64,000 bases of DNA from an uncultured Actinomycetes bacterium (GCA_963740835.1 CAVUFH010000004.1:9567-73566); one strand, 5' to 3'. Numbered from the stretch's first letter, positions 60,533 to 63,500 are shown. The notes: generated from the letters alone by a model not told the origin. A program made the numbers and translations.

Positions 60533-63500
60533 TCAACCGCGGCGGGCTTCGGACGCGTCGCCGATCGCGCGCAGGGTCCAGGTGAAGCGGTAGCGGCCGG
60601 GGCCGACCTTGTATTCGGGAAGCGTGTCGGGACCACACGAGAGCGTGCCGAGGCCGCGGTGCGCGATGTCGAGGTGCACGAACACCTCCGGTCGCGCCTT
60701 GAGCTCGACGTCGTGCGTTGCCGTCGTGAGATCCGCGGCGGTGAAGTGGCTCGCGGAGAAGTGGAACGGTGCGCCCGCGCTGATGTGGAGGCCGTGGCCG
60801 TTGCCGTCGTGGAGCGCGAACCAGCGCGTGTCGCTGTGGCCGCCGTGCTCTTGCGGCATCACGTACGGGACATACTGGTCGGTCACAGTCGACTCGTAGC
60901 GACCGAACGCGGCGCCGAGCTTGCGGTCCGGGTACGACTCGTGCGGTCCGCGTCCGAACCACACCAGCTGCTCGAGGGTCGATGGCAGCTCGAAGGCGAA
61001 GCCGAGGCGGGGAAGGTCATCGAGCTCCTTCGGGACGCGGACGTCTTCGGTGATGGTGACGACGCCGTTGGTGTCGCAGAGATACGTCGTGTTCTGGAGG
61101 ATCTCGATGTCGTCGTCGGCGGCGGCGAAGTGCGCGCGTACCGTCATCACGCGCCCGTCGGACGTTTGCTTGTTGCGGACACGGTCGACGCCGCGCGTGA
61201 CGTGCTCGAGTCCCCAGCTCCGCCACCGTCCGAGCGGTTTCAGTTCCTGATCCGGCGCGAGCTTGAGGCCGTCGTTGTCAGTGGGGGCACGCCAGAGCGA
61301 GAGCACGGGCGGCGCGGTGAGCAATGTCTGGCCGTCGAAGCGGACCGCGGTGAGCAGACCGCCTTCGGTGTCGAAGTCAACCTCGGTACGTTCGCCGTTG
61401 GTGCTCTCGCGCGGCGCGCGCCGCTTGCGGCGGGTGGGCAGGGCCACCTGCTGCCACCCGACTTGGAACCCCTTCGGTGCCCAGCCGAGGTCGATCGCAG
61501 TCTCGAAGTAGACGGTGAGGAACGCTTCCTCGCCCGGCGCCGCCTCCGGGTTCAGCCCCGCGATCTCGACGGTCTCAAACTCGCCCGCGGCGATGTCGGG
61601 GAGGCGGAGGGCGCCGTGCTGCACGATCTCGCCGTCGATCGTGATCTCGTAGCGAGCGCGGAGCCAGGAGATGCCGGCGAAGTGCTGCACGTTGCGCAGG
61701 CGGATGACGCCGCGCTTCAAGTTGCCTTGCGACGCCCGCATCCGGATCGGACAGGCGAGGTAGCGGTGCTCCTGCAGTGCGGGCTTCGGCGTGCGGTCGG
61801 GCCAGACCACACCGTCGATGCAGAAGTTCACGTCGTTCGGCTCGTGCGGACGCAGCGGAGCCCCGCTCGCCGAAGGCCCCTCGGCGCGCCGCGAGGGAGC
61901 CATGGTCGTGTCACCGAAGTCGCCGCCGTACGCGTACCTCGTGGTGCCGTCGGGGAGCTTCTGGCGGAGGCCGTGGTCCCAGAACTCCCAGATGAAGCCA
62001 CCCTGCAGTCCGTCGAGGCGTTCGATCGCGTCCCAGTAGTCGGCGAGGCCGCCGTTGCTGTTGCCCATCGCGTGCGAGTACTCGCACATGATGAGGGGCA
62101 TCTCGGGCGCGTCGCCGCGCTCGGCCCAACGCACGATGTCGGCGATCTCCGGGTACATCGGGCAGAGCACGTCGGTGGCCGACTGCGTGCGGTTCCAGTC
62201 GAGAAAGATGGCACCTTCGTAGTGCAGCGGCCGGCTCGGGTCGTAGCTGCGGATCCACGCCGCGAGCGCGTCGTGCGCGGCGCCGTAGCCCGACTCGTTG
62301 CCAAGCGACCACATGATGATGCTCGGGTGGTTCTTGTCGCGCTGCACCATGCGAGCACCGCGATCGACCCACGTGTTCACGAAGCGCGGGTCGTCGCACA
62401 GGCTGAAGATGTACGCGTGGGACTCGATGTTCGCTTCGTCGACCACGTAGATGCCGAGCTCGTCGCACAAGTCGTAGAAGCGCGGATCGTTGGGAGAGTG
62501 TGAGGTGCGCACTGCGTTGAAGCCGAACTGCTTCATCAGCGCGAGGTCGTCGCGCATCTGGTCGACGGTGACCACGCGGCCGGTGTCCGGGTCGAAGTCG
62601 TGGCGATTGACACCCCGCAGGAGGATCGGCTTGCCGTTGACGAGGAAGTCGCGCCCCTTGATCTCGACGCGCCGGAAGCCGATCGAGATCATCGCGGTGT
62701 CGTGCAGGTTGCCTTCCGGGTCGAGCAGCGCGACCTGCAGCTGGTAACGGTTCGGCTCCTCGGCCGACCACGACATGACGTCGCCGACCTGCGTGTGCAG
62801 GCGCACGGTGTGGCCGCCGAACCGGTACGCGGCGCGCGAGCGCGGCACCGGGCCGCGGAATTCGGGTGAGGTGACCGCGCGTCCGCGCGCGGTTTCGCAC
62901 CGCGCCGCGACGACCCAACCGTCGGCGCGCTCGAGTTCGTCGAACTGCACGTTGACGCGCAAGTCGAGCGTGCCGGTGGTGAGGTCGGGAGTGAGCGACG
63001 CGGTCGCGTGCACGTCGTTCAGGAACGTGCGCGGCGTGCTGTAGAGGAAGACCTCACGGTGCAGGCCCGCGTGCCACCACTGGTCCTGGTCCTCGACGAA
63101 GGACGCGTCGGACCACCGCACGACCTGGGCGGCGAGCAGGTTCGGCGCGTCGAACCGCACGAGCTCGGTGATGTCGAACTCGGACTCGAGGCGCGAGTCC
63201 TTGCTGATGCCGACTTCGGTGCCGTTGACCCACAGTTGCAACGCGCTATCGGCGCCGCCCATGTGCAGCACGACGCGCCGGCCGGTCCACTCGCGCGGGG
63301 CGTCGAAGGTGGTGCGGTAGCGACCCGTCGGGTTCTGCTCGGGAACGTTCGGCGGGAACTCGTCGAACGGCATGATCACGTTCGTGTAGATCGGCCGGTC
63401 GAAGCCCTGCATCGTCCAGCAGCCCGGCACCGCGACGTCGGACCACGCGCCGTCGTCGAACTCGGGCGCGGTGAATCCGTCGGGCGCGGTGTCGGGCCGG

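What the first reader, a model, noticed from the sequence alone, without database searches (positions are those of the whole stretch)
61842..61907. Palindromic repeat element inserted in-frame into a conserved loop of beta-galactosidase
Seen: the normally contiguous GH2 motif YGGDFGD(T/E)PNDxNFC reads [40 protein letters not shown], i.e. 22 extra codons with the frame preserved. The extra DNA shares both ends with the 73-bp unit arrayed 49 kb away (15/15 CGCGAGGGAGCCATG; TCGTGCGGACG-AGCGGAGCCCCG with one indel) but has a different central hairpin, and TCGTG occurs at both borders (61842-61846, 61906-61910). Known: Rickettsia palindromic elements insert in-frame into genes and add peptides; in E. 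coli LacZ the residues just after this loop (F601, N604) are active-site/Na+ ligands. Inference: an undescribed mobile repeat family with conserved termini and exchangeable stem-loop that both amplifies intergenically and creates new protein segments. No mobilising enzyme is visible in this window.
Basis: partly seen in the sequence, partly recalled or inferred. Interest (0 to 1): 0.8.

Follow-up and report, generated by a model that had tools for sequence, protein, structure and literature searches.

The report
Small repeat inserted in-frame into lacZ
A 66-base copy of a short repeat that normally sits between genes in this uncultured soil actinobacterium has landed, frame intact, in a conserved loop of its beta-galactosidase, a new example of a known way in which bacterial repeats add peptide segments to proteins.

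Summary
The GH2 lacZ (window 60533-63748, minus strand) carries exactly 66 extra bases (22 codons) between YGGDFGD(T) and PNDVNFC. That DNA is a high-scoring member (nhmmer E 1.9e-13) of a repeat family with 92 units at 51 loci in this 4.88-Mb genome, including the 73-bp array at 12821-13183.

The insert is absent from lacZ in all 12 related genomes that have the gene, from 120 of the 120 best database homologues, and from the solved LacZ structures.

The family works like mycobacterial MIRUs rather than a classical palindromic transposon. Units are 59-65 nt, often tandem, and mostly lie between co-directional genes in the genes' orientation. Their 3' end (GGGAGCCAT plus about 4 nt) abuts the next gene's start codon.

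Conserved ends flank two covarying arms around a GCC-GNA-GGC mini-hairpin. Comparison with a congener shows recent gain or loss.

The lacZ copy is antisense. A second in-frame genic copy, in sense orientation, sits in an Lhr helicase gene.

I found no inverted terminal repeats, no clean target duplication and no Y1 (RAYT) transposase.

AlphaFold2 models the insert as a disordered loop in an otherwise confident fold. Enzyme activity is untested.

Verdict: real; a new variant of a known kind; moderate interest.

The parts
61844..61903 (+). 60-nt core of the repeat unit (GTGCGGACGCAG ... GCGAGGGAGCCAT). It lies antisense to lacZ and encodes [20 protein letters not shown] in the lacZ frame.
   Evidence: nhmmer hit at G000:C4:71410-71469, model positions 1-60, 53.2 bits, E 1.9e-13.
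61904..61909 (+). 6-nt tail GGTCGT that completes the 66-nt insertion. It corresponds to the RGWCRTG linker or tail seen after other units.
   Evidence: DNA alignment with six homologues; unit alignment.
61842..61846 (+). Left TCGTG: target TC plus the element's GTG.
   Evidence: Junction microhomology, not a target duplication.
61906..61910 (+). Right TCGTG: element tail TCGT plus target G.
60533..63748 (-). GH2 beta-galactosidase (lacZ-like) ORF of 1071 aa, uninterrupted. The insert is residues 615-636.
   Evidence: Pfam: Glyco_hydro_2_N, Glyco_hydro_2, Glyco_hydro_2_C, LacZ_4, Bgal_small_N. AlphaFold2 model with pTM 0.86.
12821..13183 (+). Tandem array of 5 units of the same family (period 73). 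It lies between divergently transcribed PALP/ACT and TetR genes.
   Evidence: C4:22393-22749; Pfam.

Best explanation
The segment is one unit of a lineage-specific small interspersed repeat of uncultured soil Acidimicrobiia.

A unit has five parts in order:
- a conserved 5' end, GTGCGGACGCAG;
- a variable arm;
- a GCC-GNA-GGC mini-hairpin;
- a complementary variable arm;
- a conserved 3' end, GAGCGAGGGAGCCAT, followed by a short tail that ends in ATG or GTG.

Its usual home is the spacer between co-directional genes, in the genes' orientation. There its 5' GTG abuts or overlaps the upstream stop codon. Its 3' end places a Shine-Dalgarno-like GGGAG about 8 nt before the downstream start codon. 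It therefore behaves like a portable intercistronic or translation-initiation cassette, as MIRUs do, and it amplifies in tandem.

Shown: the family exists, has this anatomy and placement, and differs in presence or absence between congeners.

Inferred: after the split from the nearest sequenced relative, one unit went into lacZ in antisense orientation. The site (GGCTC|GTC) resembles the element's own unit junction. The insertion survived because it adds 66 nt with no stop codon, giving 22 residues between the equivalents of E. coli LacZ T595 and P596.

The peptide is most likely a tolerated, disordered surface loop with no function of its own. Whether the enzyme keeps full activity is unknown. 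The mobilising activity is unknown. I infer a host-dependent, microhomology-guided process rather than a dedicated transposase.
For: Family:
- 92 units at 51 loci.
- The pattern gives 44 matches in this genome, against 0 for the reversed-pattern control.

Empty site:
- None of the 12 other genomes with a lacZ match has the insert. G001, of the same genus, reads GDEPND.
- 119 of the 120 best homologues have the 14-residue loop, and none has this insert.
- Chains 9m0e and 6s6z run on without a break across the site, and query residue 131 maps to E. coli residue 595.
- Soil-metagenome contigs from relatives about 91% identical read GGCTCGT|CACCAAAATC, which is the empty site. A 151-nt contig matches the filled allele with 0 differences.

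Placement:
- 27 of 51 loci lie between two genes co-oriented with the element; 4 lie between two opposite genes.
- 28 of 51 loci have a same-strand ORF starting -2 to +10 nt after the core, 19 of them at exactly +4. 22 of 51 have a same-strand stop within 18 nt upstream or overlapping. 15 have both.
- In 17 of 74 units a GTG-started mini-ORF of 20-21 codons ends in CCATAG or CCATGA.

Structure:
- The true arm pairs are more complementary than arms paired across units: -6.48 against -5.62 +/- 0.18 kcal/mol, and 0 of 200 permutations reach the true value (examples).

Mobility:
- In a 20-kb ribosomal-protein region that is 91-94% identical to G001, G000 has two extra units of this family. One is before tuf. 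The other is before rpmC, whose product changes from MTKASEFRE to MRSRSAEFRE.

Second genic copy:
- A 78-nt in-frame insert lies between the WH3 and WH4 domains of Lhr and is absent in 7 of 7 aligned homologues.

Tolerance:
- In the AlphaFold2 model only residues 1-40, 614-636 and 779-781 have pLDDT below 50; mean pLDDT is 82.8 and pTM 0.86.
- Other lineages carry +22 (P0103) and +6 (G002) residues in the same loop.
Against: - No donor copy is more than 90% identical to the lacZ unit in G000, G001, G002, G016 or G049. The event is therefore not very recent, or the arms evolve fast.
- A test for flanking direct repeats over all 51 loci is weak: mean 5.65 of 8 against 5.44 +/- 0.10, and 8 loci at 7 of 8 or better against 3.4 expected.
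- The mini-ORF arrangement holds for only a minority of units.
- The gene calls behind the placement counts come from my own crude GC3-based caller, which covers about 78% of the genome.
- The insert lies 4-6 residues before the equivalents of Arg599 and Phe601. A table in PMC10696112 lists both as stabilising the 794-804 active-site loop (passage), so the enzyme could be impaired.
- The filled-allele contig may come from the sample the genome was assembled from, so it may not be independent (caveat).
- The Lhr gene has a frame break upstream of its insert: 549 open codons against 1470-1783 in relatives. That second example may therefore sit in a pseudogene or an assembly error.
Confidence: 0.8

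Rival explanations
1. The insertion has inactivated or crippled lacZ. The intact frame is chance (about 1 in 3) and the gene is a young pseudogene.
For: The site is 4-6 residues from the Arg599 and Phe601 equivalents. Only 3 of about 12 array periods are multiples of 3, so an in-frame length is not rare by chance. In the congener G001 the empty lacZ is itself broken, with one TAG and frame breaks, which suggests relaxed selection on lacZ in this genus.
Against: The ORF is uninterrupted over 1071 codons, with GC3 of 0.94-0.95 on both sides of the insert. The motifs NESG and CEYSHAMGN are present. All five GH2 domains score well. The model is confident outside the insert. The same loop carries other insertions in intact homologues.
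Confidence: 0.3
2. The element is a REP/BIME-type repeat mobilised by a RAYT (Y1, IS200/IS605-like) transposase acting on single-stranded hairpins.
For: It has an internal hairpin, with a GNA loop that is a stable DNA mini-hairpin motif (recalled). It shows an orientation bias and lacks both inverted terminal repeats and a clean target duplication.
Against: PF01797 (Y1_Tnp) finds nothing in this 94%-complete genome, while the same search rings in 6 of 14 control genomes. The units are longer than typical REPs and carry a ribosome-binding-site-like end placed precisely at start codons.
Confidence: 0.05
3. It is a classical MITE moved in trans by an IS transposase, with inverted terminal repeats and a fixed target duplication.
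For: Four datable insertions show short flanking direct repeats: GTAGTTATGG/GTAGTCATGG before tuf, GATCC before rpmC, TCGTG in lacZ, and GGTCAGC/GGTCATC in Lhr.
Against: The ends GTGCGGACG and GGGAGCCAT are not reverse complements of each other. The repeat lengths vary from 5 to 10 nt and the copies are imperfect. The lacZ repeats are 64 nt apart for a 66-nt insertion. The genome-wide signal is weak.
Confidence: 0.08
4. The insert is an assembly artefact: a repeat unit mis-joined into lacZ in a metagenome-assembled genome.
For: The genome is a 7-contig assembly of an uncultured organism. It shows at least one apparent frame break, in Lhr.
Against: A separately assembled 151-nt contig from run X2 covers 61800-61950 with 0 differences and 0 gaps. 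Both junctions keep the reading frame exactly.
Confidence: 0.04

Closest known systems
Mycobacterial interspersed repetitive units (MIRUs)
   Same: Units of tens of bases, single or in tandem, at about 40-50 loci. They sit in intergenic spacers of operons and carry small ORFs that overlap the neighbours' stop and start codons. They are thought to insert at start codons with little harm to expression (PMC3184786 and PMC12548453, passages read, both citing Supply 1997, which I did not read). Here there are 51 loci, units of 59-65 nt plus linker, co-orientation with the flanking genes, and the downstream start 4 nt after the core in 19 loci.
   Different: There is no shared sequence. The two-ended pattern hit only Acidimicrobiia/Actinomycetes-labelled MAGs plus one record labelled Burkholderiales. 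A direct comparison with a MIRU consensus was not made. The mini-ORF coupling holds in only part of the units. The covarying arms around a GCC-GNA-GGC hairpin are a feature I did not see described for MIRUs.
Rickettsia palindromic elements (RPEs) and other repeats fused in-frame to genes
   Same: A short non-coding repeat is inserted in-frame inside a conserved protein-coding gene and adds a peptide without breaking the ORF (PMC3184786, passage citing Ogata 2000, Delihas 2007, Croucher 2011 and Hot 2011).
   Different: RPEs are listed as about 105-146 bp (same review, table). Here genic copies are the exception, 2 of 51 loci, and the family's main niche is intercistronic.
REP/BIME elements with RAYT transposases
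   Same: Small GC-rich hairpin repeats in intercistronic regions, sometimes clustered.
   Different: No Y1 transposase was found. The units are longer, and they have a conserved ribosome-binding-site-like end at fixed distance from start codons.
E. coli LacZ (GH2 beta-galactosidase)
   Same: Same five-domain architecture. Conserved NESG and CEYSHAMGN motifs and the YGGDFGD-x-PND-x-x-F loop.
   Different: 22 extra residues lie between the equivalents of T595 and P596. None of the solved chains examined has them.

Membership tests
MIRU (mycobacterial interspersed repetitive units) | Units of about 40-100 bp, dispersed at some tens of loci and often in tandem | tested here: met
   92 units at 51 loci, with array periods of 65-73.
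MIRU (mycobacterial interspersed repetitive units) | Located between genes of operons, in the genes' orientation | tested here: met
   27 loci are co-oriented and 4 opposite among loci flanked by co-directional genes (my own crude gene caller).
MIRU (mycobacterial interspersed repetitive units) | Internal small ORF overlapping or abutting the neighbours' stop and start codons (translational coupling) | tested here: inconclusive
   17 of 74 units have a GTG mini-ORF that ends in CCATAG or CCATGA just before the next start. The others do not.
MIRU (mycobacterial interspersed repetitive units) | Sequence relatedness to the mycobacterial consensus | not tested
   No MIRU sequence was at hand. The two-ended pattern found no record titled Mycobacterium among 44 loci.
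Rickettsia palindromic elements | In-frame insertion inside protein-coding genes | tested here: met
   lacZ +66 nt; Lhr +78 nt.
Rickettsia palindromic elements | About 105-146 bp units of Rickettsia, commonly genic | tested here: not met
   Units are 59-65 nt and only 2 of 51 loci are genic. The host is Acidimicrobiia.
REP/RAYT | A cognate Y1 (RAYT) transposase in the genome | tested here: not met
   PF01797 gives 0 matches in the own genome (94% complete); the control search is positive in 6 of 14 genomes.
MITE | Terminal inverted repeats and a target duplication of constant length | tested here: not met
   The ends are not complementary. Flanking repeats are variable and imperfect.
GH2 beta-galactosidase | GH2 domain set with the catalytic acid/base and nucleophile motifs | tested here: met
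   Pfam hits down to 4e-92. NESG and CEYSHAMGN are present in the ORF. That these motifs hold the catalytic residues is recalled from E. coli LacZ.
Rfam families | Match at or above a family's gathering score | tested here: not met
   Only a tRNA was found in the window.

The most novel reading that the evidence does not exclude
These units are a transposase-independent, start-codon-seeking 'portable ribosome-binding-site cassette'. They would be an Acidimicrobiia counterpart of MIRUs, in which dated filled and empty sites between congeners expose the insertion rules. Off-target hits at start-codon-like sequences inside genes would then seed new disordered loops in enzymes. The same LacZ loop may have been hit independently in another lineage: P0103 has +22 residues whose DNA ends in ...GCGAGCGGGAGACATGA.
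Probability: 0.3. Interest if true: 0.7.

Novelty: new variant of a known kind. Interest (0 to 1): 0.5.

Why it matters
It is still unknown how MIRU-type repeats move and why they are tolerated in front of essential genes. This lineage offers a second, unrelated family with three useful properties:
- clear anatomy;
- datable gains next to tuf and rpmC;
- rare in-frame hits in enzymes.

[quoted passage not shown] The lacZ case also marks a conserved loop next to the active site of a textbook enzyme that accepts 22 extra residues. That is of some use for loop engineering.

The limits are that the organisms are uncultured and that no activity has been measured.

Tried and rejected
- Ancestral-loop reading: rejected.
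- RAYT: no PF01797 match.
- Rfam: no family matched.
- RNAalifold on a plain MAFFT alignment of 83 units gave no consensus structure. Single-sequence folds were heterogeneous. I therefore tested arm complementarity directly.
- Strand test: the antisense strand folds more stably (92 units against 23 of 117) and has more G-U pairs. The units are 17% A and 8% T, so this is confounded by base composition and decides nothing.
- Homology between the P0103 insert and this family: not significant; 14 of 200 shuffles score as high.
- Searching the rest of the contig that holds the P0103 gene: the record is not held.
- Relaxed profile search (146 hits at E <= 50): the 10 weak hits lying in open coding-like frames look like ordinary protein sequence, not insertions.
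- 92 units in foreign loci: the only 2 read-through frames are Arg/Ser/Ala-rich junk.
- The G001 array in L023 is not orthologous to the window's 73-bp array, so I make no claim about copy-number variation.
- Read laying: no contig of the same strain showed an empty allele. Coverage was patchy and all data were contigs, so nothing can be said about polymorphism.

Full report
**Observation.** The minus strand of the window carries an uninterrupted 1071-codon ORF at 60533-63748. It has the full GH2 beta-galactosidase domain set: Glyco_hydro_2_N, Glyco_hydro_2, Glyco_hydro_2_C (E 4e-92), LacZ_4 and Bgal_small_N. TCGTG stands at 61842-61846 and 61906-61910. The 73-bp array is at 12821-13183, with 5.0 copies and 99% matches. 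The shared 15-mer occurs 6 times in the window against 0.46 expected, and 0 of 100 shuffles reach 6.

**A genome-wide family.** The window is G000:C4:9567-73566 of a 4.88-Mb, 7-contig, 69% G+C genome.
- A profile seeded with the array unit and the lacZ segment, iterated with nhmmer, converged on 92 units (59, 88, 90, 92 hits at E <= 0.01) at 51 loci.
- The lacZ copy (C4:71410-71469, window 61844-61903, plus strand) scores 53.2 bits, E 1.9e-13. It is near the top of the list.
- Rfam has no family for it.

**Empty site.**
- A search of 40 relatives found a lacZ homologue in 12. None has the 22 residues.
- The nearest genome, G001 of the same genus, reads [15 protein letters not shown].
- G002, also of the same genus, has an unrelated loop 6 residues longer.
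- DNA alignment places exactly 66 extra bases between TTCGG(T/C)G and ACGAGCC.
- Of the 120 best of 4784 database homologues, 119 have the 14-residue loop and none has this insert.
- Against solved structures the match splits at query 130/131 and 153/154, while the chains run on without a break (9m0e 571|572; 6s6z 564|565). Query residue 131 maps to E. coli residue 595.
- The profile hits only the own locus among the 20 lacZ loci fetched.
- In public soil metagenomes, contigs from relatives about 91% identical read GGCTCGT|CACCAAAATC and TTCGGCTCAT|CGCCAAAATCT, which is the empty site. One 151-nt contig matches 61800-61950 with 0 differences. That contig may come from the source sample.

**Anatomy.** Aligned units show, in order:
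- a conserved 5' end, GTGCGGACGCAGCG;
- a variable arm;
- a central GCC-GNA-GGC, or in some units GCGGC-GCA-GCCGC;
- a second variable arm;
- a conserved 3' end, GAGCG(A/G)AGGGAGCCAT;
- a tail of the form RGWCRTG.

The two arms covary: GTCC/GGAC, GGCT/AGCC, GTCT/AGAC, GGTC/GACC, GCGAAC/GTTCGC and CCCCG/CGGGG. Over 100 distinct arm pairs from this genome and the fetched loci, true partners are more complementary than permuted partners. The means are -6.48 against -5.62 +/- 0.18 kcal/mol, and 0 of 200 permutations reach the true value. The sequences are related, so this overstates independence. The two termini are not inverted repeats of each other. I could not decide which strand or molecule folds.

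**Placement.** These counts use my own GC3-based gene caller, which covers about 78% of the genome.
- 27 of 51 loci lie between two genes that both run in the element's direction; 4 lie between two genes running the other way.
- 28 of 51 loci have a same-strand coding-like ORF of at least 80 codons starting -2 to +10 nt after the core. In 19 of them the start is at exactly +4 (...GGGAGCCAT-AGTC-ATG).
- 22 of 51 have a same-strand stop within 18 nt upstream or overlapping the first G. 15 have both.
- In 17 of 74 units a 20-21-codon ORF that starts at the GTG ends in CCATAG or CCATGA.

This is what reviews describe for MIRUs: intergenic units in operons, with small ORFs that overlap the neighbours' codons and that insert at start codons. 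I read passages of PMC3184786 and PMC12548453. I did not read the primary paper, Supply 1997.

**Distribution.** A two-ended pattern gives the following counts:
- own genus: 44 matches in G000, 33 in G001, 6 in G002;
- a second genus of the family: 58 in G049, 49 in G016, 7 in G050;
- the other genomes among the 63 family members searched: 0-6 each;
- the reversed-pattern control: 0-2 per genome.

The tally includes the unpublished G060, on which nothing rests. A stricter pattern scanned over one genome per prokaryote species hit 44 loci in 9 assemblies. All are titled as uncultured Acidimicrobiia, Actinomycetes or Actinomycetota, except one labelled Burkholderiales. Two full-text searches found no paper on such repeats in this group.

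**Mobility.** In a 20-kb ribosomal-protein region that is 91-94% identical between G000 and G001, G000 has four short segments that G001 lacks.
- Two belong to this family. One is 67 nt directly before tuf, flanked by GTAGTTATGG and GTAGTCATGG. The other is before rpmC, where the L29 N-terminus changes from MTKASEFRE to MRSRSAEFRE.
- Two belong to other small families. One, before rpsE, is flanked by CTCTGAGCGGA on both sides. The other, before rpmD, brings a 28-codon ORF that ends in ATGA on the new start codon.
- The gene identities come from Pfam.

No copy more than 90% identical to the lacZ unit exists in five genomes searched. No Y1 transposase was found, and no transposase-like domain was found among 47 predicted proteins of the window.

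**Genic copies.** Only one other in-frame genic copy was found. It is a 78-nt, sense-oriented insert (VRTSEAPPAAQPPPRRAAEGFIGKVI) between the WH3 and WH4 domains of an Lhr helicase gene, and 7 of 7 aligned homologues lack it. That gene has a frame break further upstream. Relaxed searches found no more. Two of two genic copies have lengths that are multiples of three, whereas about a quarter of array periods do. This hints at a selective filter, but two cases cannot establish one.

**Junctions in lacZ.** On the plus strand the target reads GGCTC|GTC(G/A)CC. The insert is GTGCGG...GCCATGGTCGT. The two TCGTG copies are each formed half from the target and half from the element. They lie 64 nt apart while the insertion is 66 nt. 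This is junction microhomology that mimics a unit-to-unit junction of an array, not a clean duplication. A genome-wide test for flanking repeats is weak.

**Consequence for the enzyme.** The insert lies between the equivalents of T595 and P596. That is 4-6 residues before Arg599 and Phe601, which a table in PMC10696112 lists as affecting the 794-804 active-site loop (passage). An AlphaFold2 model built from a 41-sequence alignment has mean pLDDT 82.8 and pTM 0.86. Only residues 1-40, 614-636 and 779-781 fall below pLDDT 50, so the insert is modelled as a disordered loop. Another LacZ, P0103 (51% identical to the query stretch), carries a different +22 residues at the same place. Its closest homologues lack them. 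Its relation to this family is not significant. Activity remains untested.

**Verdict.** This is a real, fairly recent, in-frame insertion of a member of a previously undescribed MIRU-like repeat family. It is a new variant of known kinds, combining MIRU-like placement with an RPE-like outcome. Its way of moving is unknown.

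Noticed in passing
L090:4744-4896 (gene 3001-6129), protein P0103: A distant LacZ (51% identical to the query stretch) has a different insertion of +22 residues at exactly the same loop: YGGDF-AAPRPESNAREAEHERRRAPGAASGR-HDGNF. 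Five homologues 63-70% identical to it lack the insertion. Its DNA ends in ...GCGAGCGGGAGACATGA, reminiscent of the repeat's 3' end, but the similarity is not significant.
   Followed up: partly
L002 (G002:C3:32574-36323): The same-genus lacZ has a divergent loop 6 residues longer: YAGDWDNGAGDPVERADVNFC. The repeat profile does not match it.
   Followed up: partly
L170:12909-12986 and L170:13549-13632 (G000:C3): Two further small insertions are absent from the congener G001 and belong to other repeat families. One, before rpsE, is flanked by CTCTGAGCGGA on both sides. The other, before rpmD, adds a 28-codon ORF whose TGA overlaps the new ATG (ATGA) and changes the L30 start from MELKV to MSSELKV.
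   Followed up: partly
L170:9517-9597 (G000:C3:972016-972096): A unit of the family before rpmC supplies a new start codon and replaces the first residues of ribosomal protein L29 (MTKASEFRE in G001, MRSRSAEFRE here).
   Followed up: yes
L077:2724-6708 (G000:C3): The Lhr helicase gene is split into two overlapping frames. Helicase_C, WH_Lhr, DEAD_assoc and WH2 lie in one frame; WH3 and WH4 lie in the other. Relatives have a single ORF of 1470-1783 codons. This is either a pseudogene or an assembly indel.
   Followed up: partly
L011/L014 (G001:C2:127560-131112): The closest relative's lacZ, which shows the empty site, itself has a TAG stop and frame breaks.
   Followed up: no
window 61906-61913: The perfect TCGTG repeats are 64 nt apart, but the net insertion is 66 nt. 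The two extra bases make a GTGT next to the right junction. This could be a staggered junction, or a later +2 slip that restored the frame. Unresolved.
   Followed up: no
window 54392-55568 and 31929-38274: An encapsulin shell protein lies next to an EncFtn-like cargo gene, and there is a V/A-type ATPase operon. The encapsulin ORF as I called it matches Linocin_M18 only from profile position 112, and a GH4 ORF (44857-45456) has only the C-terminal domain. These may be truncated calls or further frame breaks.
   Followed up: no
G000:C3:964156-981221 and C6:57862, C7:77678, C7:849859: A second subfamily (GGAACGCAACGGAGCCCCGC...GAGTGACC..TAGNCATGG) sits directly before tuf and other highly conserved genes. 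It shares the central hairpin with the main family, but its ends differ.
   Followed up: partly
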